The notes below the pieces were generated by a model. That model searched no databases. It was not told where the DNA came from and was given only the letters and a program-made list of their open reading frames with translations. Source: Klebsiella pneumoniae (lineage in GTDB: Bacteria > Pseudomonadota > Gammaproteobacteria > Eutrophobiales > Eutrophobiaceae). Taken from it: a stretch of 64,000 nt of DNA. Numbering within the stretch: position 1 is the first letter of the stretch; each line of letters starts with the position of its first letter. Of this stretch, positions 10,117 to 64,000 are shown piece after piece. The stretch lies in NCBI GenBank assembly GCA_945878555.1, contig CAMDWI010000010.1, forward strand, positions 6,559 to 70,558. The letters run 5' to 3'. The position numbers were made by a program, and so were the translations under genes.

Positions 10117-10128
10117 CAGGAATGCACA

Positions 10129-47289: not shown

Positions 47290-47291
47290 CC

Positions 47292-49918: not shown

Positions 49919-49927
49919 CAGGGCAGT

Positions 49928-50992
49928 ATGAACGCGCTGGCAGCGATAGTTGAATCAATCAGTTTCGCTACTCCCGAACTGGCGCTTTTGATATTGCCGC
50001 TGGTAATGATATTGATATGGCAGTTGTATGGGGATCGGAGGCTCGGTGCCCTGCAGCTTACCGGGCTTGAATATCTGGCAGGCTCCGGCATACGCAACAG
50101 CCAATCCAGAAAACGGTTACAGGTTGCGATGCGGTGCGTGATGGTTGCCGGGCTGGGACTCTTGCTCGCCGGGCCTGTTTATCGCTCCGCCACACCACTG
50201 TTTTCCCAGGATACCAGGGTATTACAAAGGAATTTTGTGGTGGCGTTTGATATGTCACCGTCGATGAATCTCCCTGCCAGTTCGAAAGGTTTTGGTGGTG
50301 ATGATTTGAAGGAAGGTGATGGTGGTGTTACCCGTTATGAGATGGCCAGAGATGCATTTCACGATTTTCTGGACAGGTTTCGGGGCGAGCGATTTGGACT
50401 GATCCTGTTCAGCACCGAACCCTTTTTTGCACGCTGGCCGACGATTGAGACGGAGAACCGTTTTGATGAGGTGCTGGAAAGCATACGACGTGGGTCGGGT
50501 ACCCAGCTGGAGGCGTTTTCCTCACTGACAAATATTGACAAGGGTTTGCTGATGGCACGCAAGGCCTTTAATGGAGAGGAAGGCGCGATCATCCTGATTT
50601 CAGATGCAGAGGACGATCTGGAGAACCTGGGGCGTGGTGTGCGTAGCCTGCGCCAGGCCGGAATTCGTTTATATACACTGGGGGTTGGAATACCGGACGA
50701 TATCCTGGCAAGGATATCGCAGGAATTTGCCGCGGACCCGGGTTTCCGGATATTCCGTGCAGATTCCGGGCAGGACATGGAAGAGGCCTATCGTGTTGTC
50801 AGCGAGATTGAGGAGTCGCCACAGTTTGTTGATGAGACCCGGGTCTTTGAGACGGATTTACGGGCCCCGTTAGCTGCACTACTCGCAATAATTGCGGTCT
50901 TGTTGCTAGTCATCAATGAAGTTATGTTCCATCAGACTGTTAGCATGAAACTATCATCCCGCCCTGTACTGAAGGTCAGCGATGGGTTTTGA
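49928..50992 (+). CDS. VWA-domain membrane protein (BatA-like, second cluster)
   Basis: N-terminal TMs, then a VWA domain with MIDAS FVVAFDMSPSMN, and a C-terminal TM (LAALLAIIAVLLLVI). Confidence 0.75.
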   Translation: MNALAAIVESISFATPELALLILPLVMILIWQLYGDRRLGALQLTGLEYLAGSGIRNSQSRKRLQVAMRCVMVAGLGLLLAGPVYRSATPLFSQDTRVLQRNFVVAFDMSPSMNLPASSKGFGGDDLKEGDGGVTRYEMARDAFHDFLDRFRGERFGLILFSTEPFFARWPTIETENRFDEVLESIRRGSGTQLEAFSSLTNIDKGLLMARKAFNGEEGAIILISDAEDDLENLGRGVRSLRQAGIRLYTLGVGIPDDILARISQEFAADPGFRIFRADSGQDMEEAYRVVSEIEESPQFVDETRVFETDLRAPLAALLAIIAVLLLVINEVMFHQTVSMKLSSRPVLKVSDGF

Positions 50993-51953
50993 TTATCCCT
51001 GGGTCCTGGCCCTGTTTGCAATGCTCGTACCACTGGTATGGGCGATGCGCAAGAGCGGGACAGTGACCAGGACAATACTGCTGAAGTTCCGCAGTGCGCC
51101 ACCGACATCCCGTTATTTCAGGTTGCGTAATCTATTTACCATTCTGTTTACTTCTGCGCTGGTGCTTGTCGGTGCAGGTCCGTATATCGAACCACAACAG
51201 ACAGCTGACTACCTGTTTCTGGTTGATACCTCACGCAGCATGCATGCACGCAACTCCTGTGACGAACCGACGTTTCTGGATCGCGCAAAAAATGTCATGT
51301 TCGATGTGATGGATGATGTACCCGAAGCCAGATTCGGAATCGTGGCCTTTGACAGGCTGGCTTTCCCGGTAACACAGCTGACCTTTAATCACAGTTATCT
51401 CCGCTCTGCCATCAATAACGGTGTGTTTGTAGGCATGACCTACCGGGCGACTGACACGGATCTGTTCAACGCACTAAAAGTGATTGCTGCCAAAAAGCAG
51501 ACCATGCCGGAGTTGTATGGAAATGTCGAATATGCCGTGCTGATAAGTGATGGTTATCTGGATGAAGAGGACTGGCGACAGAATATGGAACAGCCAATGA
51601 AGGACCTTTTGGCGTCCGGTATTACGCTTCTGGTCGTTGGTGTGGGTAATCCTGTCGACACACCAATCCCGGTAACGGATATTGATGAGGTATGCAGTGA
51701 TGCCCTGACTGAAATCGATGGCAAGACCATCCGGATCCCGTTGCGCAAGGATATCCTGCAGACTATCGCTGCAGGCGGGCAGGGTGAATATTTTGATGAG
51801 ACGACCACGGGGGAGCTGGTCAACTATCTGCGTGGCCGAACCCTGAAACAGGCGACCGATGATGTGCAGTTCGGAACCGATCAGCGTAAAAATATCGGAC
51901 TGATGTTTTTGTATCCGGCAACGCTGGCGCTGGCCGGTTTGTTACTTCTGTAG
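50982..51953 (+). CDS. VWA-domain membrane protein (BatB-like, second cluster)
   Basis: Overlaps the upstream gene by 11 nt. VWA MIDAS motif YLFLVDTSRSMH, with N- and C-terminal TMs. Confidence 0.75.
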   Translation: MGFDYPWVLALFAMLVPLVWAMRKSGTVTRTILLKFRSAPPTSRYFRLRNLFTILFTSALVLVGAGPYIEPQQTADYLFLVDTSRSMHARNSCDEPTFLDRAKNVMFDVMDDVPEARFGIVAFDRLAFPVTQLTFNHSYLRSAINNGVFVGMTYRATDTDLFNALKVIAAKKQTMPELYGNVEYAVLISDGYLDEEDWRQNMEQPMKDLLASGITLLVVGVGNPVDTPIPVTDIDEVCSDALTEIDGKTIRIPLRKDILQTIAAGGQGEYFDETTTGELVNYLRGRTLKQATDDVQFGTDQRKNIGLMFLYPATLALAGLLLL

Positions 51954-51973: not shown

Positions 51974-53332
51974 CTACGGACTCCGACCTGCAGCCCTGAA
52001 TTCGGGTATTGTTTCATTCAGAATGGCCAGAATGGCAGTGCGGTCTACCGTATTTAGGTGGGTAAACTCATCCGTGTCCTTGTTCTCGAGGATCGTAGCC
52101 AGTCTCTGATAGATATGCTGTTTGACCAGAACAGGCAGATTATCAAATGCAGCTGAATAGATCAGATAACTGAGCGGATAACGGAATAATCTGGTTTTCA
52201 GGTCAAATTCGCGCAAGGAACGCCCCTGACTGTCACTCGGACCGAGTCCGGTGAACCATTCCGCATAAGCGGGATTACCTTCTAACGTGTCTGTCAGTGG
52301 TACCTCATCTGCCATCAACAACGCCCCGATCAGTGGTGCGGAAATATCATTTATTAACCGGGCAACAACCTCAGGGATTTTATTAATGTCCTGTCCGGAC
52401 CCCGCCAGTAATTCCGGGTTTCCGTTCAGTGCAGAGCGAATGTCATAATTGACCCGTGTAATCAGGTTCTGTACTTCAACCTGATGTTCAATCACCATCA
52501 ATGCGACAATATCACTGGTTTTAGCGGGATACGGATCGGTATTCAGCAGTGTATCCAGACTTGTGACGTTGCCGATTCGCAGGCTCTCCAGCTGGAACAG
52601 GTCAGCAGGGTCATTTACGGCGATATTACCCAGATGAACCTGTTTACCGTGTTTGCCGGTCACATACCATCCGCCCCATCGGCTTTCCAGCGGGGTAGAG
52701 GTGTCTGTGAGTATCCAGCCTTCATGCGATACCAGATTACCATTCGCACCGGTATAACCTGAACCGAGGATAAAGCGAGGTACACCTCCTCCCGTCATTG
52801 AATAGGAATCGTGACAACGCAGACACTGGCCGGTTTCTTGTACAAACCGGGGGGTCGACTCTGCGTTCTGCTCAAGTGTATAAAATACCGGACCCAGATG
52901 CGGATCCATCGACGCAATTTCGAGCACACCCGATCCGGGCACCATTGCGATATAGGTTGTGTCGTTAAAATAGATGGCCCGGGGCGTTTTCGGTGTGATA
53001 TTCGCGATATTCAGACTGGTACGGGAAAATACCAGTACTTGTGAGGCTGGACTGATCTTTAGTGATTCCAGCAGAGCATCCAGGTAACCCCTGTCTGCAT
53101 GAAATTTCAGTCCGGAATTATTACCTGTTTCAATTGTGGCTATCGGATCGGTACGTGCTGTACTTGAATAACGCATGACACCGTACTCGATATCACTTTC
53201 TGTGTCGGAGTCAGACCCATACGGTGAGGAGGAGTTATCATTTGATTGTCCTGCCACAGGGAGTCCGCTCAGCAACAGTCCCATCGACAGGAAGATTGAC
53301 ATCATTCTTGAATAGCAGGTATCAGGTGTCAT
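51974..53332 (-). CDS. Hypothetical secreted protein with a single CxxCH heme-binding motif
   Basis: ORF 51974..53380 (TTG). I prefer the in-frame ATG at 53332 (MTPDTCYSRMMSIFLSMGLLLSGLPVAGQ is a signal peptide), but the start is uncertain. The internal motif GQCLRCHDS reads as CxxCH. It is immediately downstream of, and co-oriented with, the cytochrome c gene. Confidence 0.5.
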   Translation of the reverse strand: MTPDTCYSRMMSIFLSMGLLLSGLPVAGQSNDNSSSPYGSDSDTESDIEYGVMRYSSTARTDPIATIETGNNSGLKFHADRGYLDALLESLKISPASQVLVFSRTSLNIANITPKTPRAIYFNDTTYIAMVPGSGVLEIASMDPHLGPVFYTLEQNAESTPRFVQETGQCLRCHDSYSMTGGGVPRFILGSGYTGANGNLVSHEGWILTDTSTPLESRWGGWYVTGKHGKQVHLGNIAVNDPADLFQLESLRIGNVTSLDTLLNTDPYPAKTSDIVALMVIEHQVEVQNLITRVNYDIRSALNGNPELLAGSGQDINKIPEVVARLINDISAPLIGALLMADEVPLTDTLEGNPAYAEWFTGLGPSDSQGRSLREFDLKTRLFRYPLSYLIYSAAFDNLPVLVKQHIYQRLATILENKDTDEFTHLNTVDRTAILAILNETIPEFRAAGRSP

Positions 53333-53459
53333 CAGTATAAATGGGTCAGGACAAACCGGTTTATCGGGGTATCTATACAAGACCGGCCTGACAGGTATCG
53401 CTCCTGCAGGCCGGTTTGTGTGTCATCGCCAAGTCTCCGGTCAAGAGACTTGTGTCCGC

Positions 53460-53774
53460 TTATTTGCCTCCGGAGAGGTATTCAGCCAGATGCTCGATAT
53501 CTTCATCAGTCAGTGTGCTAGCCATCGGATTCATGGTCGGCCCTGCACGTTCGCCGCTACGGAAAGCAGTCAATTGTGTCTGAATATAGGCTTTTTCAAG
53601 CCCTGCCAGCTTGGGAAACATTTCCGGCGCCTGGCTGTCACCCGCAGGTCCGTGACAACCGACACATCCCTTGGACAAATAGGTAGCTTCACCAGCAGCG
53701 GCGTCCGCCTGTACAGTAGATATTGCAGAGACGGTAAGTAGTCCTGACATAAACAGAACGTGTATGCTTTTCAT
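53460..53774 (-). CDS. Class I c-type cytochrome (mono-haem, c-551/c-552-like)
   Basis: 104 aa with a signal peptide. The heme-binding CxxCH is SKGCVGCHG, with a downstream Met ligand candidate (GPTMNPM). The size is typical. Confidence 0.8.
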   Translation of the reverse strand: MKSIHVLFMSGLLTVSAISTVQADAAAGEATYLSKGCVGCHGPAGDSQAPEMFPKLAGLEKAYIQTQLTAFRSGERAGPTMNPMASTLTDEDIEHLAEYLSGGK

Positions 53775-54293: not shown

Positions 54294-55265
54294 ATGGGAT
54301 TAATGGGTAAAATAAGCGGTCATACCGCAAAAAGGGGTGTTTTTTCAGCATTTTTATTGACAACTTGTGCACTGTCGGTATTTCTGAGTACCAACGTGTC
54401 AGCCCAGTTGACACCTGACAGACTGGATTCCGCAAATCGTGCCAACAACGAGGATCAGACTCCGCGCGATCCGATCCAGATTGCCAGCAATATCTGGTGG
54501 GTTGGTCATTCGGAAGTCGGTTCATTTCTGATAACTACCTCGGAAGGCCTGATCCTGATGGACACTACGTCGCCTGAACACGTGACATGGGTAATCGACA
54601 GTATCAAGAAGGCCGGTTTCAAACTTGAGGACATCAAGTATATTCTCAATTCACATCCTCATGCAGAACATATAGGAGGCCTGGCCCAGTTCAAAAAGGT
54701 CGCACCGAATGCAAAGGTAGTAACCTCGGCAGGAACAGCGGCAATCATTGCCAGCGGCGGTAAAAGCGATTTTCGCAATATGATGCAGGGTGATGAGGGG
54801 GCGGAATACTTCGAGCCGGTTCAGGTGGATGCCACGATTGGTGATATGGAAGAGATAAAACTCGGTGATGTGACCCTTGTTGCTCATATTACATCAGGCC
54901 ATACCCCAGGAGCCACAACCTGGACGATGAAGGTCATGGACAACGGTAAGGAATACAATGCTGTTTACATGAGTGGCATGTCAGCCTCGGGCGTCGACCG
55001 CGGCCCACTTATAAAGAACGAACTTTATCCGGAAATAGCAGATGACTTTGAAAAATCCTTTGCACATCTGAAGACGCTGCAGTGTGATTTCTATTTGTAT
55101 GCACGTGCGTCATCAATTGATCTGGACAAGAAAGTCGCCCTGAAAAAAGAGGGCAGCACCGCCGAAAATCCGTTTATTGACCCGGCAGGCTGCGCACATT
55201 ACATCAATTTTTATGAATCCAGATACAGAAAGCAGCTTGAAGAGGAACAGGCTGCCAAGATGTAG
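54294..55265 (+). CDS. Secreted metallo-beta-lactamase-fold hydrolase (subclass B3-like)
   Basis: RBS GAGGAGGGAG with a signal peptide. The motif NSHPHAEHIGG is an HxHxDH-type variant with Glu at the Asp position. Downstream His motifs are VAHITSGHTPGATTW. Confidence 0.7.
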   Translation: MGLMGKISGHTAKRGVFSAFLLTTCALSVFLSTNVSAQLTPDRLDSANRANNEDQTPRDPIQIASNIWWVGHSEVGSFLITTSEGLILMDTTSPEHVTWVIDSIKKAGFKLEDIKYILNSHPHAEHIGGLAQFKKVAPNAKVVTSAGTAAIIASGGKSDFRNMMQGDEGAEYFEPVQVDATIGDMEEIKLGDVTLVAHITSGHTPGATTWTMKVMDNGKEYNAVYMSGMSASGVDRGPLIKNELYPEIADDFEKSFAHLKTLQCDFYLYARASSIDLDKKVALKKEGSTAENPFIDPAGCAHYINFYESRYRKQLEEEQAAKM

Positions 55266-55374
55266 TCAGGACCGTGTCATTACGGGAAGATAGATGGAAA
55301 AATCCTGACTGCAGCGGCCTCGTGCCGCTGCAGTCAGTTTGGAACAGGCAAAAGTACAGGAGCCGGGGGTGCGT

Positions 55375-55899
55375 ATGAGCATATACAACACAGTAAAAAG
55401 CATTACAGGAATACTTCTGGCGTTCGGACCCGTGCTGGTGTGGGGGCATGCCCAGTTACTCGTGGCTCCAGCACCGGATGATCCGACACCAACAGCCTTT
55501 GTTTCACCCCTCCCTCGGGAAGATAACGTTCGTATGAAGGACTTGTTGCCGTGCGGTGGATTTCGCTCACAGCCGCCGGCCAGCGTAAAAGGGGAACCGC
55601 AGCGGTCATATACCACGGGTTCTACCATACGGGTACAGTGGAAGGAAACCAATGACCATACTGGTGTATGGCGTATCGATTTATCTGCAGATGAAGAAAA
55701 ATCATGGCAAGTCCTGTTCAATATGAAGGATGGTGCTGATGGGGAAATCAGTGAAGAAGCGCCAAAGTATTACTGGGCAGATATTACCCTGCCCTCCGGG
55801 ATAAAGTGTAAAAACTGCACGTTTCGCCTCACCCAGTCAATGGGGGAAATTGATGATGGAAATGACTATTTCTCCTGTGCGGATATCACAATAAATTGA
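55375..55899 (+). CDS. Small secreted hypothetical protein (predicted mature N-terminus begins with His)
   Basis: ORF 55339 (TTG)..55899; I prefer the ATG at 55375, downstream of AGGAG/GGGGG. Signal peptide MSIYNTVKSITGILLAFGPVLVWG; the predicted cleavage site VWG|HAQ leaves a His at +1. I recognise no family. Confidence 0.5.
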   Translation: MSIYNTVKSITGILLAFGPVLVWGHAQLLVAPAPDDPTPTAFVSPLPREDNVRMKDLLPCGGFRSQPPASVKGEPQRSYTTGSTIRVQWKETNDHTGVWRIDLSADEEKSWQVLFNMKDGADGEISEEAPKYYWADITLPSGIKCKNCTFRLTQSMGEIDDGNDYFSCADITIN

Positions 55900-56222: not shown

Positions 56223-58655
56223 GTGAGATTACGCCTTACTTTATTAGGCCTTTATTCTGTATTTTCCGTGGCAGGGGTGCAGGCGCAGGAGACACCAGCG
56301 GCTGAAAATTCGATTGCTTCATACCGTTCTGTTATGGATCGTTATTGTGTTACCTGTCATAACGAAACCCTTAAAACGGCAAACCTGATGCTCGACAAGG
56401 CCGATATAAACGACCTGAATGTTGAGCCGATGGTGTGGGAGAAGGTGTTGCTTAAAATGCAGACACGTTCCATGCCGCCGGTCGGTATGCCCAGGCCAGA
56501 TGAGTCGTTTTATATCGGATTTGGTGAACATCTTGAACGTGAACTTGATCTGGCCAATCAGGCTGATCCAAACCCAGGCAAGACTGTCTCTGCCCATCGT
56601 CTGAACCGTACTGAATATACCAATGTAATCCGCGACCTGCTGGCAGTTGATGTTGATGGTGCCTCTATGCTTCCTCCGGACAATTCGGGTGGTTTTGATA
56701 ACCTTGGCGATCTGTTATCGGTATCACAGGTGCTTATGGAGAAGTATATGGCTGCGGCACGGCAGGTCAGCCGTCTTGCTGTAGGTGACCCGACAATCGA
56801 CACGGACGTACATGAATACGTCGTATCCCCGTTCCTGCTCCAGAACGAACGGATGAATGAAGATCTGCCGTTTGGTACTCGAGGTGGTATAGCTGTAAAC
56901 CACCTGTTCCCGCTTGAAGGTGAATATGAGCTGAATGTTCGGCTGCTGCGTACCGATGGCACCGGTCTGGTCATAGGTATCGATGAACCACATCAGCTGG
57001 ATGTACGTGTAGATGGTAAGCGAGTTCAGTTGTTAACCGTAGGTGGTAAAAACGTAGCTCTTGCAATGGGTGCAGGGCGTGCAGACAAGACCCCGCCGGT
57101 ATTTGAGCAGGCCCAGTATGAACGTACGGCTGATGATGTGCTGAAAGTGCGATTCCCGGTCAGCGCAGGGGCGAAGTCGGTACAGGTAGCATTTCTGGAA
57201 GAGAATTTCGCCTGGGAAGGCCAGATACCCCAGCGTTCATATGATAGCTACATGAAATCCAGAATGGAGAATGATTACCAGCGCGCATGGACCGAACCTT
57301 CGGTCTCGAGCGTCACCATCACCGGGCCGTTTAATGTCAAAGGTGCCGGAAATACTGCGAGTAGGGAAAAAGTATTTATCTGTAACCCCAAAACCAGTAA
57401 AGCCGAGTCGGCGTGTGCAGAAAAAATAATCGCCAACCTGGCACGCAAGGCATTTCGCCGTCCGGTCAAGGATGCCGATATCAAACCGCTGATCTCGTTA
57501 TATGAACAGGGTGCCAAAGAGGGTGGTTCGTTTGAGTCAGGGGTACAGATGGCAATTGAAGGTCTGCTCGTCAGTACGGAGTTTCTGTTCCGTATCGAGC
57601 GTGAGCCTGCCAATGTAGCAGCCAACCAGAATTATGAGTTGAGTGACATCGAACTTGCATCACGATTGTCATTTTTCCTCTGGAGCAGTATCCCTGATGA
57701 AGAATTGCTGAAGGTCGCCGAGCAGGGCAAGCTTGGCAAGCCGGCGGTTCTGGACCAACAGGTCAAGAGAATGCTTGCTGATGAGCGTTCTACAACACTG
57801 GTAAGTAATTTTGCCGAACAGTGGCTGCTGTTGCGTAACCTGCCGCATACGGAAAAGAACCAGGAAATCTTCCCACAGTTTGACGAAAACCTGCGTAAGG
57901 ACTTCCAGAAAGAGACGGAGTTGTTCCTTGGCAGTATCTTCCGCGATGATCGTTCGATACTCGACTTGTTCAGGGCAGATTACAAGTACCTGAACGAAAG
58001 GCTGGCTCGCCATTACGATATCCCGGATGTCTATGGTAATCGTTTTCGCCGCGTATCTGTCTCGGATATAAATAAACAGGGGCTTTTAGCACAGGGTGCT
58101 GTACTCGCGATCACCTCCTATCCAAACCGCACCTCGCCGGTATTACGAGGAAAATGGGTTCTGGAGAATATTATGGCAGCGCCGCCACCGCCGCCACCGA
58201 CTGTGATACCACCACTACAGGAATCTGATGACAAGGGTAAGGTTATGTCGATGCGTCAGGCAATGGAGAAGCATCGCGCCAATCCGGTATGTGCAGTGTG
58301 CCACAATCGTATGGATCCTATAGGATTTGGTCTGGAGAATTTCAATCCGATAGGCCAGTGGCGTACCGAAGATGCCGGTAGCCCGATAGACTCGTCTGGT
58401 ATGCTACCAGACGGAACCAAGTTCCAGGGGCCAGCAGAATTGCAGAAGGCATTGTTGAACCAGTCTTCGGTCATAGCGAGTGCATTTACCCAAAAACTGC
58501 TGACCTATGCATTGGGGCGTGATATAGCCTATTACGATATGACATCAGTGCGCAAAATTGTGCACGAGTCCAAAGCGAGTGATTACAGGTTTTCATCAAT
58601 AGTTACCGGAATTGTTAACAGTTTACCATTTCAGATGAGGAGGACGGGCTCATGA
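56223..58655 (+). CDS. Large secreted multi-DUF protein with an N-terminal CxxCH (Planctomycete-type DUF1595/DUF1587/DUF1592/DUF1588/DUF1585-like; alternatively PSCyt/DUF1549/DUF1553-like)
   Basis: ORF 56154 (GTG)..58655. I prefer the GTG at 56223 with GGAGG 8 nt upstream, which gives the signal peptide (M)RLRLTLLGLYSVFSVAGVQAQE. The N-terminus has the heme-like motif DRYCVTCHNETLK. The block HRLNRTEYTNVIRDLL is, as far as I recall, the hallmark of these Planctomycete-type families. The family name is from memory. Confidence 0.7.
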   Translation: MRLRLTLLGLYSVFSVAGVQAQETPAAENSIASYRSVMDRYCVTCHNETLKTANLMLDKADINDLNVEPMVWEKVLLKMQTRSMPPVGMPRPDESFYIGFGEHLERELDLANQADPNPGKTVSAHRLNRTEYTNVIRDLLAVDVDGASMLPPDNSGGFDNLGDLLSVSQVLMEKYMAAARQVSRLAVGDPTIDTDVHEYVVSPFLLQNERMNEDLPFGTRGGIAVNHLFPLEGEYELNVRLLRTDGTGLVIGIDEPHQLDVRVDGKRVQLLTVGGKNVALAMGAGRADKTPPVFEQAQYERTADDVLKVRFPVSAGAKSVQVAFLEENFAWEGQIPQRSYDSYMKSRMENDYQRAWTEPSVSSVTITGPFNVKGAGNTASREKVFICNPKTSKAESACAEKIIANLARKAFRRPVKDADIKPLISLYEQGAKEGGSFESGVQMAIEGLLVSTEFLFRIEREPANVAANQNYELSDIELASRLSFFLWSSIPDEELLKVAEQGKLGKPAVLDQQVKRMLADERSTTLVSNFAEQWLLLRNLPHTEKNQEIFPQFDENLRKDFQKETELFLGSIFRDDRSILDLFRADYKYLNERLARHYDIPDVYGNRFRRVSVSDINKQGLLAQGAVLAITSYPNRTSPVLRGKWVLENIMAAPPPPPPTVIPPLQESDDKGKVMSMRQAMEKHRANPVCAVCHNRMDPIGFGLENFNPIGQWRTEDAGSPIDSSGMLPDGTKFQGPAELQKALLNQSSVIASAFTQKLLTYALGRDIAYYDMTSVRKIVHESKASDYRFSSIVTGIVNSLPFQMRRTGS

Positions 58656-59986
58656 TAATTTTCAAAAAGGCGATACCCAGGCGTACATTTTTGCGTGGTT
58701 TGAGTGCCTCGGTCGCATTACCGATGTTGAGCGCAATGGTACCGGCACTGGCGAATCCGAACGATCCTGCCAGCAAGATGCCGATTCGTGTTGGATACGT
58801 ATATACACCGAATGGCATAATCCGTGACAGGTGGACGCCTAAGGTCGCGGGCGCCAATTATGAAATGACCGACATCCTGAAACAGTGGGAGCCGTTCCGT
58901 GACCAGATGCTGGTACTCAGCCATATGGATAACGGTGCTTCCGAGAGCGTCAGCGGACACTCGGGTGGAAGTTCGATGTTCCTGACCGGTATCGAGCCGA
59001 ACAAGTCATTAAGCGAAGTTCGATGCGGAATTTCAGTGGATCAGGTTATTGCAGCCGAATTCGGCAAGCACACACCGCTTTCCTCGTTACAGGTTTGTAT
59101 CGAGAATGCTGCAGAACTTGCTGGCCAGTCTGCTGCCGGGTATAGCTCGGCTTATACCAACACCATATCCTGGGCCAGCCCGACTACCCCATTGCCGATG
59201 GAACATCGTCCTCGTGAAGTTTTCGAGCGTTTGTTTGGTGATGGTGGTACTGATCCTGCGGCCCGCCAGAGCCGTTTGAGCAGACAGCGCAGTATTCTCG
59301 ACTTTGTTCGAGAGGATATGGCAAGGGTAAACAAGACACTCGGGATGGAAGACAGCGCCAAGTTGAGTGAATATCTTGATGCAGTTCGTGGCGTGGAATT
59401 CCAGATTCAGAAGGCAGAAGCAAAAACAGATATGGAGTTGCCAGAAATGAATCGTCCAGTGGGTATCCCTGCCCATGGGGATCATCTCAAGTTAATGTAT
59501 GACCTGTTATTACTGGCGTACCAGACCGATATGACCCGGGTATTTACCTTTATGGTGGCCCGTGAATACAGTGAAATGGTATTTACCCATCTCGGTCACA
59601 AAGACCCCTACCATCCGCTGACACACCATCGCGGTGATCCGGTCAGGAAACGCCAGGCTGGTGAAATTGATGTATACCACGCCTCATTGTTTGGCGAGTT
59701 CCTGGGCAAACTGAAGGCAGCCAAGGATGCAGACGGTTCCTCAATGCTGGATAACTCGCTTCTGGTTTACGGTGCGGGAATGGGTGATGGTGACGTACAC
59801 AGCCAGTGGAACATACCAGTTGCGTTAATCGGTGGCGCTGGCGGCATAAAGGGTGGGCGTCATATAGCTTACAAGCAGGGTACACCGATGTGTAATCTGC
59901 ATGTGACTATGCTGAACAAACTGGGCATGCCTACAGAGACGTTCGGGAAGTCTTCCGGAGAGCTTGATCTGAGCCTTTCCGCATAA
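58652..59986 (+). CDS. Tat-signal protein, DUF1552-like (HxxSHH-family; alternatively DUF1501), partner of the upstream multi-DUF protein
   Basis: ATGA overlap with the upstream stop. The N-terminus IPRRTFLRGLSASVALPMLSAM is a twin-arginine motif with the LPxLxAM pattern I associate with DUF1552. The internal motif YHPLTHHRGDP resembles the DUF1552 HxxSHH motif. 444 aa. Confidence 0.65.
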   Translation: MIIFKKAIPRRTFLRGLSASVALPMLSAMVPALANPNDPASKMPIRVGYVYTPNGIIRDRWTPKVAGANYEMTDILKQWEPFRDQMLVLSHMDNGASESVSGHSGGSSMFLTGIEPNKSLSEVRCGISVDQVIAAEFGKHTPLSSLQVCIENAAELAGQSAAGYSSAYTNTISWASPTTPLPMEHRPREVFERLFGDGGTDPAARQSRLSRQRSILDFVREDMARVNKTLGMEDSAKLSEYLDAVRGVEFQIQKAEAKTDMELPEMNRPVGIPAHGDHLKLMYDLLLLAYQTDMTRVFTFMVAREYSEMVFTHLGHKDPYHPLTHHRGDPVRKRQAGEIDVYHASLFGEFLGKLKAAKDADGSSMLDNSLLVYGAGMGDGDVHSQWNIPVALIGGAGGIKGGRHIAYKQGTPMCNLHVTMLNKLGMPTETFGKSSGELDLSLSA

Positions 59987-60012
59987 CAGTAGATATTTAA
60001 AGAGGTTATTAG

Positions 60013-61833
60013 ATGAGCATGAAGGGGAAACGTTTGTCCGGTTGGGTGGCTCCATTACTCGTACTGTGTTCAGCAGCCAGTCTGGCTGCTGAACCTGATT
60101 ACCGCCTGGTTGAATCTGCGCGAAATCAGAACTGGCAGCAGGTGCAGGAACTAATCAAGGACAAGGCAGATGCAAGGTCTGCGCAACCAGACGGGGCGAC
60201 AGCGTTGGCCTGGGCTGTTTATTGGGATAATCTTGAAACAGTTAACCAGTTGATTGCAGCTGGCGCGGATGTGAATGCTGCGAATGACTATGGTGTAACT
60301 CCGTTGAATCTCGCTTGCAAGAACCGCAACCCCCAGATCGTGAAGGCCTTGCTAGAGGCGAAGGCAGATCCGAATATTGCGCTCTGGAGTGGTGAGACAC
60401 CGCTGATGACGGCTGCACGTACAGGCGTTGTCGAGGTTGCACAGTTGTTACTGGAACATGGTGCCAATATCAATGTTCAGGAACCAAAGCGTGGCCAGAC
60501 CGCATTAATGTGGGCTATCTCTTTCCGAAATCCGGAAGTGGCGAAGTTGTTGATTGATAAAGGTGCAGATGTTGCGCTCAAGACCAGAAAATATCAGGAA
60601 GCAGGTTACGCACCTATGGTGCTGGAGGCCTATGCTGGAAATGTTGAAGGCACTCCCCAGGGTGGTTATACCGCATTGATGTTTGCTGCCCGTGTAGGAG
60701 ATATGGAAACCAGTAAGTTATTGCTGGCGCATGGCGCAGTCATTAATGAATCCTCCGTTGAAGAGGGCCCGGCGCTGGTTATTGCCAGTGCGGGAGGATT
60801 TGAAGACCTTGCCTTGTATCTGCTTGAACAAGGTGCGGATCCCAAGAGTGCTGATAGTAATGGCATGACCTCTTTGCACTATACAATGCGAGATGGTCTC
60901 AAGCTGTTACACGGATATGAGATTGTCGCCGCCACCAGGGTATGTGGATATGCGGCTGATTCCCGTTGTAAACCGATTGAGACAGTTAGTCCGGAAGAAC
61001 TAGAGAAAGCAAATACACCAGGTTCAGGTCTGTATATCGTTGAAGGTACGGTAGACACGAATAATAATAACGACGGTGAAAGTATGACCGACGAAATTTT
61101 ACCTGGTGGCAATATGTATGAACTGGCAGAGGCCTTGCTGGCAAAAGGAGCAGACCCGGATGCGGAGATGAAGTATCCACCTTCCAGGTTACGTATGGAC
61201 AGTTTGCCCTGGCTAAATCTGGAAGGTGCTACACCTTTCTTTCTGGCGACAGCATCACTGGATACCTCTGCAATGGAGATGTTGCTGGAACACGGTGCAA
61301 AACCATTGGTTTCAACCAGACCCAATCCCGCCGTGCTGGAAAAACAGACGAAGGTCTACGCTGACGATAACCAGATTCTGGGTAACGGTTCTTCATTGAT
61401 GGTAGCTGTAGGTCTGGGTAAGAAGAATGACTTTACTCCTACGGAAGAGAAGAGTGCGCTTGATAGTGCCAAACGACTGGTTGCCCTGGGCGCAGATGTT
61501 AATGAAGCCACGGCTACGGGCTGGACAGCATTACATGCCGCTGCCTTTGTGGGTGCAAATTCGCTGGTCAGTTATCTGGTGGATCAGGGTGCAAAGGTCA
61601 ATGTTCAGACCGGTTGTGGACGCACACCATTAAGCCTTGCGCTGGGAGTAAGCGTAATTGGTCTGCTTGACCGTACTGTGCCGCATGAGTCTACAGCAGA
61701 CTTGTTAAAGTCGCTCGGGGCCGACGATGCAAAGGCCTCTGCGCCTGCTGGACAATGTGTGCTTGGCCGAGGTGGTCTGGAAGTTGATATCGAGTTGAAG
61801 AAGCAGATTGAGCAGGCCAAGAGCCAGCTTTGA
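60013..61833 (+). CDS. Secreted ankyrin-repeat protein
   Basis: RBS AAGAGG. Signal peptide MSMKGKRLSGWVAPLLVLCSAASLAA. There are at least 8 ankyrin-type repeats (e.g. GATALAWAVYWDNLETVNQLIAAGADVNAANDYGVTPLNLACKNRNPQIVKALLEAKADPN) with a non-repeat insert around residues 290-370. Confidence 0.8.
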   Translation: MSMKGKRLSGWVAPLLVLCSAASLAAEPDYRLVESARNQNWQQVQELIKDKADARSAQPDGATALAWAVYWDNLETVNQLIAAGADVNAANDYGVTPLNLACKNRNPQIVKALLEAKADPNIALWSGETPLMTAARTGVVEVAQLLLEHGANINVQEPKRGQTALMWAISFRNPEVAKLLIDKGADVALKTRKYQEAGYAPMVLEAYAGNVEGTPQGGYTALMFAARVGDMETSKLLLAHGAVINESSVEEGPALVIASAGGFEDLALYLLEQGADPKSADSNGMTSLHYTMRDGLKLLHGYEIVAATRVCGYAADSRCKPIETVSPEELEKANTPGSGLYIVEGTVDTNNNNDGESMTDEILPGGNMYELAEALLAKGADPDAEMKYPPSRLRMDSLPWLNLEGATPFFLATASLDTSAMEMLLEHGAKPLVSTRPNPAVLEKQTKVYADDNQILGNGSSLMVAVGLGKKNDFTPTEEKSALDSAKRLVALGADVNEATATGWTALHAAAFVGANSLVSYLVDQGAKVNVQTGCGRTPLSLALGVSVIGLLDRTVPHESTADLLKSLGADDAKASAPAGQCVLGRGGLEVDIELKKQIEQAKSQL

Positions 61834-61874
61834 TTTTACTCTCGTCAGCAGTCCATCAGGACTGATTGAGAAAA

Positions 61875-61899
61875 GGCACCCGGTGGGTGCCTTTTTTTT
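61875..61899 (+). terminator. Rho-independent terminator (GGCACCC-ggt-GGGTGCC + T8)
   Basis: Read from the sequence 40 nt after the ankyrin-gene stop. Confidence 0.8.
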
Positions 61900-62023
61900 C
61901 CCAGGAAGTATTACGGGGGTAAATTGACTGTAACGGTATGAATGATATATGTTTGGAAAGTATCTGCAGGCTGTACAAGGCGCGACACAGGTTATGATTT
62001 AAATACATGCAGGAGCGGGGGCA

Positions 62024-64000
62024 TTGAACAGGTTTTTCACCACAATCATCACCGGTATTGCCGGCGGCGTATTAATTGTTGCATCCGGAACGAGTCAGGC
62101 ACAACAGGCCTCTCCCTATCGTGCGTTACTCGACAAATATTGCGTAAGTTGTCATAACGAAACCCTGAAGACCGCAGGCCTGATGCTGGATAAGGTGAAC
62201 GTGGATGATATCAGCCAGAATCCACAAGTCTGGGAGCGCGTGATTATGAAGCTGACATTACGCGCCATGCCACCTGTAGGTATACCTGTTCGTCCTTCCG
62301 AGGATGAATATGACTCCATGCTCACCTATCTTCAATCCGGCCTCGATCATCTGGCTGAAGAGAATCCGGAGCCAGGCCGTGTGACCGTACACAGGCTGAA
62401 CCGGACAGAATATGCAAATGCCATCCGTGATCTGTTGGATATGCAGGTAGATACCACAAAGATGTTGCCCCCTGACAATATTGGTCAGGGGTTTGACAAT
62501 ATTGCAGAAGTACTCGCGGTGTCGCCGCTGCTTATGGAACAGTACATGTTTGCCGCAGGCAGGATCAGCCGTCTTGCCGTCGGACCTGCGGAAATGCAGC
62601 CCGCCAGTGAAACCTACAATATACCTGATACGTTCCGACAGGATGCCTATATGGGTGAGGACCTTCCATTTGGTTCCAGAGGAGGTTCGGTCATCCGCCA
62701 TCACTTCCCGATGGATGGTGAATATACCGTTAGCATCAAAATGCACAGAAGCATGGAAGGTTATATCCGCGGGATACAAAACGAACACAAGCTCGATGTG
62801 CGTTTGAATGATCAGCGTATTGGTATGATGAGTATAGGTGGCAAATTTATTGCCCGTTCAGGTCCCTTGTTCAATGAAAGCCAGAACCCGCAGTACGCAG
62901 GTGACCCCGAGCAGACTGGTTATGAATTTACGGCGGATGAAGAACTGGTATTGAAATTTCCGGCCAGCGCAGGTACCCATACACTGGGCGTTACATTTGT
63001 AGATGAATCAGTCAAACCGACCGGGATTATGACACCAGCATTGCTGTTACCCGATATTGGCCATTACAAGGGGGGTAATCCAGCGGTTGCCAGCGTTACT
63101 GTCAGCGGTCCCTATCAGGTCAAGGGTCCCGGTGATACACCGAGCCGTAACAGGATATTTACTTGCAAACCCGGGTCCACTGCCCCGGACAAGGACAAGC
63201 AGGCCTGTGCACATAGCATACTCGCAATGTTGGCGCGTCAGGCCTATCGTCGACCGGTAAATGATGAAGACATGGCTGATCTGATGTCACTATACAATAC
63301 CGGGGCGAACGAAAAGGGTTTTGAAAGCGGAATTGAACTGGCCTTGCAAAGTATTCTTGCCGGTCCCGAATTCCTGTTCCGGGTTGCGCAGGACCCAGCT
63401 GGTGTGACTGCAGGTACAGTTTATCCAATCAGTGATATTGAGCTGGCTTCCAGACTTTCATTTTTCCTGTGGAGTACCATCCCGGATAAAGAATTACTGG
63501 ATCTGGCTGAGCAGGGCAAGTTGCGTGAGCCGGGTATCCTCGAGGAACAAATTCGCCGGATGATGGCAGATACCCGCTCGGGTGCCTTGATAGATAATTT
63601 CGGAGAACAGTGGCTGGTGTTGCGTAATGTGGATATCGCTGCGCCACATCCGAATATCTTCCCTGAGTTTGATAATGAACTACGAGAGGCGTTCAAACAG
63701 GAAACCCGATTGTGGTTTGAAAGCATGATTCGCGAGGATCATAGTATTCTGGAGATGCTTACCTCGAACTATACATACGTGAATGAGCGTCTCGCGCGTC
63801 ATTACGGTATTCCTGACATATATGGCAGCCGGTTCCGTCGCATAAGTCTGGATGGTCTGGAAGAGCGCAAGGGATTGCTGGGCAAGGGCAGTCTGTTGCT
63901 GGCCACCTCGTATAACAACCGGACTTCACCGGTTTTGCGCGGCAAATGGGTACTGGAAAATCTGCTGGATATGCCACCACCGCCGCCGCCTGAAAATGTC
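62024..64000 (+). CDS. Second copy of the large CxxCH multi-DUF protein (paralog of 56223-58655); 3' end beyond the window
   Basis: The frame is open from the stop at 62000-62002 to the window end. I propose the TTG start at 62024 with AGGAG 8 nt upstream; the signal peptide is ...FFTTIITGIAGGVLIVASGTSQAQQ. The translation is collinear with 56223-58655 (LLDKYCVSCHNETLKTAGLMLDK...; HRLNRTEYANAIRDLL...; SFFLWSTIPDKELLDLAEQGKL...). Confidence 0.7.
   Translation, partial: MNRFFTTIITGIAGGVLIVASGTSQAQQASPYRALLDKYCVSCHNETLKTAGLMLDKVNVDDISQNPQVWERVIMKLTLRAMPPVGIPVRPSEDEYDSMLTYLQSGLDHLAEENPEPGRVTVHRLNRTEYANAIRDLLDMQVDTTKMLPPDNIGQGFDNIAEVLAVSPLLMEQYMFAAGRISRLAVGPAEMQPASETYNIPDTFRQDAYMGEDLPFGSRGGSVIRHHFPMDGEYTVSIKMHRSMEGYIRGIQNEHKLDVRLNDQRIGMMSIGGKFIARSGPLFNESQNPQYAGDPEQTGYEFTADEELVLKFPASAGTHTLGVTFVDESVKPTGIMTPALLLPDIGHYKGGNPAVASVTVSGPYQVKGPGDTPSRNRIFTCKPGSTAPDKDKQACAHSILAMLARQAYRRPVNDEDMADLMSLYNTGANEKGFESGIELALQSILAGPEFLFRVAQDPAGVTAGTVYPISDIELASRLSFFLWSTIPDKELLDLAEQGKLREPGILEEQIRRMMADTRSGALIDNFGEQWLVLRNVDIAAPHPNIFPEFDNELREAFKQETRLWFESMIREDHSILEMLTSNYTYVNERLARHYGIPDIYGSRFRRISLDGLEERKGLLGKGSLLLATSYNNRTSPVLRGKWVLENLLDMPPPPPPENV

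What the first reader, a model, noticed from the sequence alone, without database searches (positions are those of the whole stretch)
56223..59986. Planctomycete-type gene pair (large CxxCH multi-DUF protein plus Tat-signal DUF1552-like protein) translationally coupled, in a non-Planctomycete-looking context
The 810-aa secreted protein has DRYCVTCHNETLK near its N-terminus and the HRLNRTEYTNVIRDLL block. Its partner is a 444-aa protein that starts RRTFLRGLSASVALPMLSAM and has an HPLTHH motif. Together they match the paired families that are hugely expanded in Planctomycetes and Verrucomicrobia, the DUF1585/87/88/92/95 plus DUF1552 pairing (or DUF1549/1553 plus DUF1501), whose function is unknown. 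Here the two genes overlap by ATGA and are followed by a secreted ankyrin-repeat gene and a strong terminator, which suggests a three-gene operon. The surrounding genes (TonB receptors, Tct transporters) look proteobacterial. A second copy of the large gene starts at 62024, so the family is expanded here too.
Basis: partly seen in the sequence, partly recalled or inferred. Interest (0 to 1): 0.75.

Follow-up and report, generated by a model that had tools for sequence, protein, structure and literature searches.

The report
Cytochrome, phosphatase-fold and ankyrin periplasmic operon
This is a real three-gene operon for exported proteins (a two-haem cytochrome, a phosphatase-fold metal protein and an ankyrin-repeat protein); the family is very common and already catalogued in marine and soil bacteria, but nobody knows what it does.

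Summary
The 810-aa protein (56223-58655) matches PSD3, PSD5, PSD4, PSCyt3 and PSD2. Its partner (58652-59986) is DUF1552/HXXSHH, not DUF1501. The genes overlap by ATGA. A secreted ankyrin gene and a strong terminator follow, and a second copy of the large gene (48% identical) starts at 62024.

The PSCyt3-DUF1552 pairing is already published, with function unknown. It is not unusual outside Planctomycetes: thousands of close homologues come from gammaproteobacterial and acidobacterial metagenome genomes.

New here:
- The ankyrin gene is a conserved third partner, present in 70 of 80 related loci across two phyla.
- Both CxxCH motifs of the large protein are invariant. It also has a CBM-like beta-sandwich and a helical half with no solved relative.
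- In related genomes, small c-type cytochromes and a 468-aa CxxCH protein are co-operonic with the module.

Best guess (inferred, about 0.4): a periplasmic metalloenzyme coupled to electron transfer through c-type haems, with the ankyrin protein as scaffold or chaperone. It is a new member of a known but uncharacterised kind; interest is moderate.

The parts
56223..58655 (+). Large exported protein, 810 aa, with two c-type haem motifs. Layout: Sec signal peptide (aa 1-22); cytochrome-c-like N-terminal domain with C42xxC45H46 and M84-P-P; PSD3/DUF1587 (aa 126-187); beta-sandwich (aa ~195-375); PSD5/DUF1595 (398-459); PSD4/DUF1592 (473-600); PSCyt3/DUF1588 (619-717); PSD2/DUF1585 (730-803).
   Evidence: ORF and translation. 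GTG start with GGAGG upstream. Independent 810-aa gene call. Pfam hits all far above gathering scores. Structure model pLDDT 77.5, pTM 0.77.
56346..56360 (+). First haem-binding motif, C42-V-T-C45-H46.
   Evidence: C42, C45 and H46 are invariant in 54 of 54 aligned homologues. M84-P85-P86 is also invariant and is a candidate axial Met.
56805..57347 (+). Central beta-sandwich domain (aa ~195-375), not covered by any Pfam model. It is CBM6/35/36-like and C1q/TNF-like.
58290..58304 (+). Second haem-binding motif, C690-A-V-C693-H694, inside PSCyt3.
   Evidence: Present in all 53 full-length homologues; the only row without it is the truncated second copy in this window.
58652..59986 (+). DUF1552/HXXSHH protein, 444 aa. 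It is Tat-exported, has an alkaline-phosphatase-superfamily fold, and its start overlaps the stop of the large gene (ATGA).
58679..58693 (+). Twin-arginine motif R10-R11-T-F-L of the Tat signal peptide.
   Evidence: R10 and R11 are present in 67 of 68 diverse family members, and a Tat-like RRx## motif in 66 of 68.
59612..59629 (+). HPLTHH motif (aa 321-326), the HxxSHH signature of the family and a candidate metal-binding site.
   Evidence: In diverse alignment A3: H321 67/68, S/T324 66/68, H325 67/68, H326 59/68.
60013..61833 (+). Exported ankyrin-repeat protein, 606 aa, starting 26 nt after the DUF1552 stop. It is the third gene of the operon.
   Evidence: Ank_2 E = 1.7e-58 and Ank E = 6.8e-57. 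Sec-type N-terminus MSMKGKRLSGWVAPLLVLCSAASLAAEP. An ankyrin homologue lies in 70 of 80 related loci, almost always directly adjacent.
61875..61899 (+). Intrinsic terminator closing the three-gene operon.
   Evidence: A 7-bp G+C-rich stem, 3-nt loop and T8 tail. In its context it folds at -23.9 kcal/mol, z = -4.88, with 0 of 200 shuffles folding as well.
62024..64000 (+). Second, paralogous PSCyt3-type large gene (TTG start), cut off by the end of the window.
   Evidence: Same Pfam architecture (PSD3, PSD5, PSD4, PSCyt3) plus weak PSCyt1 and Cytochrome_CBB3 hits. 48% identical to the first copy. Tandem second modules are also seen in L005, L050 and L053.
53460..53774 (-). Small mono-haem cytochrome c, 104 aa, exported. 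Probable electron-transfer partner; the association is inferred.
   Evidence: Pfam Cytochrom_C E = 2e-11. Homologous small cytochromes c lie directly upstream of the large gene, co-directional, in L005 and L081, and beside a module in L062.
51974..53380 (-). CxxCH-containing protein with no Pfam domain. The ORF is 468 aa but the public gene call is 443 aa, so the true start is probably near 53305. Possible accessory of the module; the association is inferred.
   Evidence: No Pfam, NCBIfam or PDB match. Large homologue family with no annotation. Co-operonic with cytochromes c and the module in L005 and L081, and adjacent in L062, but stand-alone in L082.

Best explanation
SHOWN. The region 56223-61899 is one operon of three exported proteins, closed by a terminator.
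1. A Sec-exported 810-aa protein of the published 'Group III PSCyt3' architecture. It has two conserved c-type haem motifs, a CBM-like beta-sandwich and a helical C-terminal half with no solved relative.
2. A translationally coupled, Tat-exported DUF1552 protein whose predicted fold is that of the alkaline-phosphatase superfamily.
3. A Sec-exported ankyrin-repeat protein.
The trio is conserved as a unit across Gammaproteobacteria and Acidobacteriota.

INFERRED MECHANISM. The three proteins form a periplasmic complex. DUF1552 is the catalytic subunit, a metalloprotein loaded or folded in the cytoplasm, hence the Tat signal. Its metal site is built from N54, H103, H321, H325, D379/D381 and H383, with His103 where other superfamily members carry the Ser, Thr or formylglycine nucleophile. 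The large subunit binds DUF1552 through its PSD4-PSCyt3-PSD2 half, holds or recognises a probably glycan-like or esterified organic substrate with the beta-sandwich, and relays electrons between the DUF1552 site and the respiratory chain through haem 2, then haem 1, then small soluble cytochromes c. The ankyrin protein acts as scaffold or chaperone for assembly of the haem subunit or the complex, by analogy with AnkB and catalase KatB.

The net role would be oxidative periplasmic processing of an imported organic compound. The substrate is unknown.
For: Identity and operon:
- Pfam assignments; ATGA overlap; terminator.
- The ATGA-type overlap is conserved in 55 of 68 loci.
- The large gene lies directly upstream of DUF1552 in 77 of 80 loci and an ankyrin gene is present in 70 of 80. 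Of the ten loci without one, six are truncated.

Haem:
- Both CxxCH motifs and the M84-P-P motif are invariant.

Catalytic subunit:
- The Tat motif is present in 66 of 68 diverse members, and H103, H321, H325, H383, D130, D217 and R296 are invariant or nearly so at 31-47% identity.

Core partner:
- Distant DUF1552 genes are coupled to a 399-aa protein made only of PSD4-PSCyt3-PSD2 (L084/L085).

Electron-transfer context:
- In L005 nine co-directional genes overlap or abut: 474-aa CxxCH protein, cytochrome c, cytochrome c, then large-DUF1552-Ank twice.
- L081 has the same order. In this window the small cytochrome c and the 468-aa protein lie 2.4-4.2 kb upstream.

Other:
- Substrate hint: CBM6/35/36-like sandwich, and a TonB-dependent receptor directly upstream of a second pair in L081.
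- PSCyt genes are enriched in oxic-layer genomes (PMC5615132).
- Ankyrin precedent: AnkB is required for KatB activity (Howell et al. 2000, as cited in PMC12754779).
Against: - No biochemical data exist for any member of either family.
- All characterised alkaline-phosphatase-superfamily enzymes are hydrolases, transferases or mutases (own knowledge). A redox role would be unprecedented.
- I placed residues at the AP/NPP catalytic positions only from the order of strands, helices and motifs, because I had no model coordinates. The model is also weak (pLDDT < 50) over aa 152-202, 259-272 and 306-319, the last of which borders the HPLTHH motif.
- No sequence-level link to any solved superfamily member was found.
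- The beta-sandwich also resembles C1q/TNF domains, so carbohydrate binding is not established.
- The cytochrome c and 468-aa genes are linked to the module in only a minority of loci (3 of 80, plus L081), and here they lie on the opposite strand.
- The ankyrin gene was absent next to three distant DUF1552 genes, so it is not essential to the family's chemistry.
- Complex formation was not tested.
Confidence: 0.4

Rival explanations
1. Conventional hydrolase. DUF1552 is an ordinary alkaline-phosphatase-superfamily hydrolase (phospho-, sulfo- or diesterase, or a transferase) acting on an imported or envelope substrate. The large protein is a substrate-binding or targeting subunit, and its haems play a structural, sensing or redox-regulatory role rather than feeding the catalytic site.
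For: The best structural matches are all hydrolases or transferases: NPP, S1 sulfatases, PafA, LtaS, EptA. The partner carries a CBM-like sandwich. PSCyt genes sit next to sulfatases and carry CBMs in Verrucomicrobia (PMC5615132). A TonB-dependent receptor lies upstream of a pair in L081.
Against: No conserved Ser, Thr or Cys-x-Pro-x-Arg nucleophile signature was found: 0 matches in the query and no conserved column among 68 diverse members. The inferred nucleophile position holds an invariant His. Two strictly conserved haem motifs, obligatory pairing, and co-operonic soluble cytochromes c in L005 and L081 are hard to explain without electron transfer.
Confidence: 0.3
2. Sox-like division of labour. 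The dihaem protein oxidatively activates or couples a substrate (for example a sulfur, phosphorus or glycan intermediate). The phosphatase-fold partner then hydrolytically releases the oxidised group, as SoxAX cytochromes and the SoxB metallohydrolase cooperate in thiosulfate oxidation. Here the chemistry occurs at the haem, not at the DUF1552 metal site.
For: A c-type cytochrome is paired with a metallohydrolase-fold protein in the periplasm. Small cytochromes c are available to carry electrons away. The analogy to Sox rests on my own knowledge of that pathway.
Against: No carrier protein like SoxYZ and no sulfur-metabolism genes occur in the window. There is no similarity to SoxA, SoxX or SoxB in the Pfam, PDB-sequence or fold searches. 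The coordination of haem 2 is unknown.
Confidence: 0.12
3. Maturation pair. The cytochrome protein, perhaps with the ankyrin protein, is an oxidative maturase or assembly factor that installs a post-translational modification or metal centre in DUF1552, comparable in logic to formylglycine-generating enzymes for sulfatases. It is not a permanent catalytic partner.
For: There is strict one-to-one pairing and translational coupling. Sulfatase-type folds often need oxidative maturation (own knowledge). The ankyrin protein AnkB is an activity factor for a haem enzyme.
Against: An 810-aa multidomain protein with a CBM-like domain is elaborate for a maturase. Tat export implies that DUF1552 is already folded and loaded before it meets a periplasmic partner. 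No modifiable Cys or Ser motif is conserved.
Confidence: 0.06
4. Non-enzymatic role. The module is an envelope, structural or signalling assembly, as was once proposed for the sister DUF1501/PSCyt2 modules in connection with PVC cell organisation.
For: Kamneva et al. 2012 correlated DUF1501 modules with intracellular membranes (PMC3542564). Ankyrin repeats mediate protein-protein interaction.
Against: The module is common in ordinary Gram-negative Gammaproteobacteria and Acidobacteriota. The invariant His/Asp cluster in an enzyme fold, the Tat export and the haem motifs all point to catalysis.
Confidence: 0.04

Closest known systems
'Group III' PSCyt3/PSD proteins paired with DUF1552 (Studholme 2004 domain families; He et al. 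2017, mSphere, PMC5615132)
   Same: Same Pfam architecture (PSCyt3 with PSD4, PSD2, PSD3 and PSD5) and the same adjacency to a DUF1552 gene. Function is unknown in both.
   Different: The host is a marine gammaproteobacterium rather than a PVC bacterium. This subfamily carries a conserved third gene for a periplasmic ankyrin protein, which the papers I could search do not mention. In related genomes it is co-operonic with small cytochromes c.
DUF1501 + PSCyt1/PSCyt2/PSD1 modules of Planctomycetes and Verrucomicrobia (Kamneva et al. 2012, PMC3542564)
   Same: Same logic: a Tat-signal protein of unknown function encoded next to a large CxxCH-containing multidomain protein. That paper proposes electron transport, with the exact function unknown.
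   Different: The Pfam families differ. No DUF1501, PSCyt2 or PSD1 hit was found here, even at E <= 10 for the partner.
Alkaline-phosphatase superfamily (NPP, type I sulfatases, PafA/PhoK phosphatases, LtaS/EptA transferases)
   Different: No detectable sequence relationship. No CxPxR or conserved Ser/Thr nucleophile; an invariant His sits at the inferred position. DUF1552 is obligatorily paired with a dihaem cytochrome, which characterised members are not.
AnkB-KatB of Pseudomonas aeruginosa (Howell et al. 2000, cited in PMC12754779)
   Same: An exported ankyrin-repeat protein encoded in the same operon as a haem protein and needed for that protein's activity.
   Different: AnkB is a small protein paired with a catalase. 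Here the ankyrin protein is 606 aa and paired with a c-type cytochrome and a phosphatase-fold protein. Sequence relatedness to AnkB was not tested.
Cbp2D of Cellvibrio japonicus (Branch et al. 2021, PMC8981238)
   Same: A multidomain secreted gammaproteobacterial protein that combines c-type cytochrome domains, a DUF1587/PSD3 domain and a carbohydrate-binding module. One of its cytochrome domains can reduce LPMOs. In this window a small LPMO_10/BIM1-like gene lies directly upstream.
   Different: Cbp2D lacks the annotated PSD4, PSCyt3 and PSD2 domains and has no reported DUF1552 partner. The LPMO-like neighbour is not conserved: it occurs in 1 of 80 loci, and that locus is the window's own sequence.

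Membership tests
PSCyt3/PSD 'Group III' multidomain cytochrome (Pfam PF07627 with PF07631, PF07624, PF07626, PF07637) | Hits to PSCyt3 and PSD4 above gathering score, usually with PSD2, PSD3 and PSD5. | tested here: met
   PSD4 157.8 bits (cutoff 23.3), PSCyt3 117.8 (27), PSD2 84.0 (25.8), PSD3 80.9 (23), PSD5 69.8 (34.2).
PSCyt3/PSD 'Group III' multidomain cytochrome | Conserved CxxCH haem-attachment motif. | tested here: met
   C42/C45/H46 in 54 of 54 sequences and C690/C693/H694 in 53 of 53 full-length homologues. Actual haem binding cannot be tested here.
PSCyt3/PSD 'Group III' multidomain cytochrome | Adjacent DUF1552 gene. | tested here: met
   ATGA overlap in the window. The same adjacency occurs in 77 of 80 related loci. 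The literature states the pairing.
DUF1552 / HXXSHH (Pfam PF07586) | Profile score above the gathering threshold. | tested here: met
   300.1 bits against a cutoff of 30, E = 3.1e-89, profile positions 1-306 of 307.
DUF1552 / HXXSHH (Pfam PF07586) | HxxSHH motif. | tested here: met
   HPLTHH at aa 321-326. Thr replaces Ser here, as in 10 of 68 diverse members (S in 56 of 68).
   No such hits. The partner matches only PF07586 even at E <= 10.
Tat-exported protein | N-terminal twin-arginine motif (S/T-R-R-x-F-L-K type) followed by a hydrophobic stretch. | tested here: met
   PRRTFLRGLSASVALPMLSAMVPALA. RR is conserved in 67 of 68 and an RRx## motif in 66 of 68 diverse members. Export itself was not tested.
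Alkaline-phosphatase superfamily | Core alpha/beta fold. | tested here: met
Alkaline-phosphatase superfamily | Metal-binding Asp/His ligands at the ends of the core strands. | tested here: inconclusive
   Conserved N54, H321-x3-H325, D379/D381-x-H383 occur in the expected order after strands 46-56, 297-302 and 369-378. I could not superpose coordinates, so the correspondence is inferred.
Alkaline-phosphatase superfamily | Ser, Thr or formylglycine nucleophile at the N-terminus of the helix after the first strands. | tested here: not met
   The helix starting at aa 102 begins G-H103. H103 is conserved in 67 of 68, whereas the neighbouring Ser positions are not (S101 in 7 of 68, S104 in 8 of 68). 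The assignment of this position is inferred.
Type I (formylglycine) sulfatase | C/S-x-P/A-x-R signature. | tested here: not met
   No match in the query. Matches occur in 15 of 68 relatives but are scattered over different columns, at most 2 per column.
Class I c-type cytochrome (N-terminal domain of the large protein) | CxxCH with a distal Met, recognised by a cytochrome c profile. | tested here: inconclusive
   CxxCH and invariant M84-P-P are present, but the Cytochrome_CBB3 hit is below threshold at 17.6 bits against 27. The second copy scores 20.9, and PSCyt1 19.6 against 22.
CBM6/CBM35/CBM36 carbohydrate-binding modules | Beta-jelly-roll fold with sugar- and calcium-binding residues. | tested here: inconclusive
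Ankyrin-repeat protein | Multiple ankyrin repeats above the Pfam thresholds. | tested here: met
   Ank_2 195.6 bits (5 stretches) and Ank 186.6 bits (6 stretches).
AnkB-type periplasmic accessory of a haem enzyme | Exported ankyrin protein, co-operonic with a haem protein and required for its activity. | not testable with these tools
   The signal peptide and the operon position are seen. Whether it is required for activity needs genetics. Homology to AnkB was not tested.
Rho-independent terminator | G+C-rich hairpin followed by a U tract. | tested here: met
   -23.9 kcal/mol, z = -4.88, T8 tail. The simple consensus scan did not list it.

The most novel reading that the evidence does not exclude
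DUF1552 is the first redox-active member of the alkaline-phosphatase superfamily. In this reading a His-rich metal centre, with His103 replacing the usual nucleophile, is wired through the PSD4-PSCyt3-PSD2 haem module and soluble cytochromes c to the respiratory chain. It is assembled with a dedicated periplasmic ankyrin chaperone and oxidises an abundant but unrecognised class of imported organic substrates. That would assign a function to one of the largest uncharacterised protein-pair families in Planctomycetota, Verrucomicrobiota, Acidobacteriota and marine Gammaproteobacteria.
Probability: 0.2. Interest if true: 0.8.

Novelty: new member of a known kind. Interest (0 to 1): 0.4.

Why it matters
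PSCyt/PSD cytochromes and their DUF1552 or DUF1501 partners are among the most expanded families of unknown function in environmentally dominant bacteria. DUF1552 alone has 15,532 clusters at 50% identity. Two papers call them intriguing and note that their function is unknown.

This window does not solve the problem, but it supplies a compact and well-delimited example in a gammaproteobacterial genome. It also yields concrete, testable hypotheses:
- DUF1552 has a phosphatase-type fold with a His-rich site.
- PSD4-PSCyt3-PSD2 is the minimal haem partner.
- A periplasmic ankyrin protein is a conserved third component in this subfamily.
- Soluble cytochromes c are co-operonic in relatives.

If the electron-transfer coupling proves real, it would extend the catalytic repertoire of the alkaline-phosphatase superfamily. 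It would also identify a new route by which heterotrophs feed electrons from periplasmic substrates into respiration.

Tried and rejected
- DUF1501/DUF1549/DUF1553 assignment: rejected, no hits.
- Sequence-level link of DUF1552 to solved structures, using two profiles (A1, A3): only chance hits at E > 0.4. The same search for the large protein gave no hits.
- NCBIfam naming of the two proteins: no families.
- Foldseek against the PDB for the helical half of the large protein: nothing at E <= 1e-3.
- LPMO link (a small LPMO_10/BIM1-like gene lies upstream, and Cbp2D carries DUF1587): rejected as a conserved association, because the LPMO-like gene appears in only 1 of 80 loci and that locus is the window's own sequence.
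- PQQ-dehydrogenase link: the gene is directly upstream of the large gene only in L003 and L062, and is absent from the window. Too rare to build on.
- Unbiased clustering of neighbouring ORFs: spoiled by spurious long ORFs in high-GC genomes and single linkage. It gave only weak extra candidates.
- Co-divergence of the three proteins (r about 0.93): this mostly reflects shared phylogeny and I do not count it as evidence of interaction.
- Literature search on PSD4, HXXSHH and similar terms: swamped by the human PSD4 gene, and no functional study was found.
- Source contig: the record for the 443-aa neighbour could not be retrieved. Only a 7.2-kb identical Logan contig was found.
- The consensus terminator scan missed the real hairpin; folding confirmed it.

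Full report
**1. The observation**

The ORF list shows a + strand reading frame ending at 58655. The 810-aa version starts at GTG 56223, seven to eight bases after a GGAGG. An independent gene call on an identical 7.2-kb metagenome contig gives the same 810-aa product.

The protein begins with a Sec-type signal peptide (MRLRLTLLGLYSVFSVAGVQAQ). The next gene (58652-59986, 444 aa) starts inside the stop codon of the first (ctcATGAtaa). Its product begins MIIFKKAIPRRTFLRGLSASVALPMLSAM and carries HPLTHH at residues 321-326.

A third gene (60013-61833, 606 aa) follows after 26 bases. It encodes a protein with a Sec-type N-terminus. The hairpin GGCACCC-GGT-GGGTGCC followed by T8 (61875-61899) folds at -23.9 kcal/mol, z = -4.9. 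A second large gene starts at TTG 62024 and runs off the window.

**2. Family assignment**

Pfam places the 810-aa protein in five families, all far above their gathering scores:
- PSD3/DUF1587 (aa 126-187)
- PSD5/DUF1595 (398-459)
- PSD4/DUF1592 (473-600)
- PSCyt3/DUF1588 (619-717)
- PSD2/DUF1585 (730-803)

The partner is DUF1552/HXXSHH (E = 3e-89). Nothing else matches it even at E <= 10, so the DUF1501 alternative is excluded. The third protein is an ankyrin-repeat protein (Ank_2 E = 2e-58). The second copy has the same architecture and is 48% identical. NCBIfam has no model for either of the two main proteins.

**3. What is already known**

He et al. 2017 (PMC5615132, Text S1) describe exactly this arrangement. 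Their 'Group III' proteins contain PSCyt3 with PSD4, often with PSD2, PSD3 and PSD5. [quoted passage not shown]

Kamneva et al. 2012 (PMC3542564) describe the sister DUF1501/PSCyt2 modules. They proposed membrane targeting and electron transport, with the exact function unknown. I found no functional study in the held library.

**4. Distribution**

The family is not confined to the PVC group.
- The word-indexed protein search returned its maximum of about 8,000 scored hits for each protein. The best 120 are 58-100% identical, and those with names are labelled Gammaproteobacteria or Woeseiaceae.
- The exhaustive search found 15,532 DUF1552 clusters at 50% identity with E <= 1e-3.
- In one-genome-per-species reference contigs, 576 stretches encode relatives. 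The best 80 come from Gammaproteobacteria, Steroidobacteraceae and many Acidobacteriota (Bryobacterales, Vicinamibacterales). The closest is a gammaproteobacterial metagenome genome at 87% identity.
- A DUF1592 protein of Cellvibrio is already in the literature.

The rest of the window fits a marine heterotrophic gammaproteobacterium: two TonB-dependent receptors, TctA and TctC transporters, five Amidohydro_3 paralogues and two MoxR-DUF58-VWA operons. The 'non-Planctomycete context' is therefore real but ordinary.

**5. Conserved gene neighbourhood**

I translated all ORFs of the 80 loci and compared them with the window's proteins.
- The large gene lies directly upstream of DUF1552 in 77 of 80 loci.
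- An ATGA-type 4-nt overlap is present in 55 of the 68 loci where it could be scored.
- An ankyrin homologue is present in 70 of 80 loci. It is almost always immediately adjacent: downstream in Gammaproteobacteria and Bryobacterales, upstream in many Vicinamibacterales.
- Of the ten loci without one, six are truncated (including L001, which is the window's own sequence cut short). Two have orphan DUF1552 genes (L006, L080). That leaves only two intact pairs lacking the ankyrin gene.

It is a subfamily trait, however. Next to three DUF1552 genes about 35% identical to the query (L087-L089), no ankyrin gene follows.

In another distant pair (L084/L085) the partner is only 399 aa and consists of PSD4-PSCyt3-PSD2, again with a 4-nt overlap. 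This marks the C-terminal haem module as the core partner of DUF1552.

**6. Links to other cytochromes**

In L005 nine co-directional genes overlap or abut:
- a 474-aa homologue of the window's 468-aa CxxCH protein (51974-53380),
- two small cytochromes c,
- large-DUF1552-Ank,
- a second large-DUF1552-Ank.

L081, from a 1.7-Mb contig, has the same order, preceded by two metallo-beta-lactamase-fold genes. It also carries a second large-DUF1552 pair directly downstream of a TonB-dependent receptor. L062 has the cytochrome c and the 452-aa protein beside a module.

In the window the same families (468-aa protein, 104-aa cytochrome c, B3 metallo-beta-lactamase) lie just upstream, but the first two are on the opposite strand. 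The 468-aa family is large, has no Pfam domain, and also occurs away from the module (L082). The link is therefore recurrent but not obligatory.

**7. Structure-based inference**

In an alignment of 68 members only 31-47% identical to the query, several features survive:
- the Tat motif (66 of 68),
- N54 (54 of 68, His in 10 more) and G55 (68 of 68),
- H103 (67 of 68),
- D130, Q131, D217 and R296 (68 of 68 each),
- H321 and H325 (67 of 68 each), H326 (59 of 68),
- D379 (56 of 68) and H383 (68 of 68).

The sulfatase C/S-x-P/A-x-R signature is absent.

From the order of strands and helices, I infer the following correspondences. N54 ends the first strand, where the superfamily has a metal-binding Asp. 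H103 opens the helix where the nucleophile normally sits. H321-x3-H325 and D379/D381-x-H383 follow the central strands in the way the D-x3-H and D-H ligand pairs of alkaline phosphatase and NPP do. This mapping is inference; I had no coordinates to superpose.

Both CxxCH motifs and an M84-P-P motif are invariant among homologues.

**8. Most likely mechanism**

*Shown:* three exported proteins from one operon; two conserved haem-attachment motifs; a Tat-exported phosphatase-fold protein with a conserved His/Asp cluster; and conserved synteny.

*Inferred:* the proteins form a periplasmic complex. DUF1552 is the catalytic metalloprotein. The PSD4-PSCyt3-PSD2 module docks on it. Electrons pass via haem 2 and haem 1 to small cytochromes c and the respiratory chain. 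The beta-sandwich helps bind a substrate, possibly a glycan or an ester. The ankyrin protein acts as a scaffold or chaperone, as AnkB does for catalase KatB (Howell et al. 2000, cited).

The enrichment of PSCyt genes in oxic-layer genomes fits an oxidative role.

I give this about 0.4. It is weakened by three points:
- every characterised member of the fold is a hydrolase, transferase or mutase (own knowledge);
- complex formation was not tested;
- the active-site mapping is unverified.

The main rival (0.3) is a conventional hydrolase with a haem-bearing binding or regulatory subunit. Lesser rivals are a Sox-like oxidise-then-hydrolyse scheme (0.12), a maturase role for the cytochrome (0.06) and a non-enzymatic role (0.04).

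**9. Novelty and verdict**

This is a new member of a known, uncharacterised kind. The pairing itself and its 'unknown function' status are already published, and its occurrence in Gammaproteobacteria is routine in databases.

This analysis adds four things:
- the conserved ankyrin partner in this subfamily,
- the phosphatase-superfamily fold and candidate metal site of DUF1552,
- the minimal PSD4-PSCyt3-PSD2 partner,
- the operonic link to soluble cytochromes c in relatives.

Interest is moderate at 0.4. The family's function is a genuine open question and this locus is a clean test case, but the window itself holds nothing a specialist would find surprising.

Noticed in passing
window 54294-55265 (+): A 323-aa exported protein scores above the NCBIfam cutoff for subclass B3 metallo-beta-lactamase (256.3 bits against 240). 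Homologous MBL-fold genes recur near the module in L004, L005, L033, L037 and L081, so it may be a hydrolase linked to the cluster rather than a resistance gene.
   Followed up: partly
window 55339-55899 (+) (public gene aa, about 55375-55899): A small secreted LPMO_10/BIM1-like copper-protein candidate lies directly upstream of the large gene. It scores 69.7 bits for the SCE4755 polysaccharide-monooxygenase-like family, just under the cutoff of 75. It is not conserved next to the module in other genomes (1 of 80 loci). Cbp2D of Cellvibrio, whose cytochrome domain can reduce LPMOs and which is a proposed LPMO electron donor, carries a DUF1587 domain (PMC8981238).
   Followed up: partly
window 51974-53380 (-): A 468-aa ORF (public gene aa) with a CLRCHD haem-type motif has no Pfam, NCBIfam or PDB match. 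It belongs to a large family, with nearly all of the 8,000 candidates scored matching at E <= 1e-5; hits that carry a name are labelled Gammaproteobacteria. It is co-operonic with small cytochromes c and the module in L005 and L081, but stands alone in L082.
   Followed up: partly
window 53460-53774 (-): A 104-aa mono-haem cytochrome c (Cytochrom_C E = 2e-11). Equivalents sit immediately upstream of the large gene in L005 and L081.
   Followed up: partly
window 492-2483, 2713-4764, 28069-29937, 30367-32220 (-), 43718-45934: Five paralogous Amidohydro_3 proteins of 617-738 aa are scattered through the window. An Amidohydro_3 gene also follows the ankyrin gene in L081.
   Followed up: no
window 8078-13027 (+) and 46270-51953 (+): Two separate MoxR(AAA_3)-DUF58-VWA operons of the Bat/aerotolerance type occur in one 64-kb window.
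   Followed up: no
window 40088-41590 (-), 41675-42895 (-), 37290-39905 (-): An EutA-like protein (E = 2e-116) lies next to a cupin-domain protein and a TonB-dependent receptor, with no other ethanolamine-utilisation genes noticed. Three ~380-410-aa cupin proteins occur in the window (13256, 17625, 41675).
   Followed up: no
L005 3506-16605: Nine co-directional genes overlap or abut: a 474-aa CxxCH protein, two cytochromes c, then large-DUF1552-Ank twice. This is the most complete version of the system seen.
   Followed up: yes
L084 253-2813 and L085 127-2687: A distant DUF1552 (32% identical) is coupled by a 4-nt overlap to a short 399-aa partner containing only PSD4-PSCyt3-PSD2. This looks like a minimal form of the pair.
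   Followed up: partly
L081 1-6618 (-): A TonB-dependent receptor gene lies directly upstream of, and co-directional with, a second large-DUF1552 pair. This hints at substrate uptake across the outer membrane.
   Followed up: no
L003 3612-5375 and L062 3614-5386: A PQQ-dependent dehydrogenase beta-propeller gene lies directly upstream of the large gene in these two loci only. There is none in the window.
   Followed up: yes
L003 and L048 (record CAMBTO01): The public record is titled 'MAG: Klebsiella pneumoniae'. However, it carries two of these modules and resembles the environmental gammaproteobacterial metagenome genomes, so the label is probably a taxonomic error.
   Followed up: no
window 61924-61953 (+): A promoter-like site (TTGACT, 18 nt, TATGTT) lies between the terminator and the second large gene. 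This fits the second module being a separate transcription unit.
   Followed up: no
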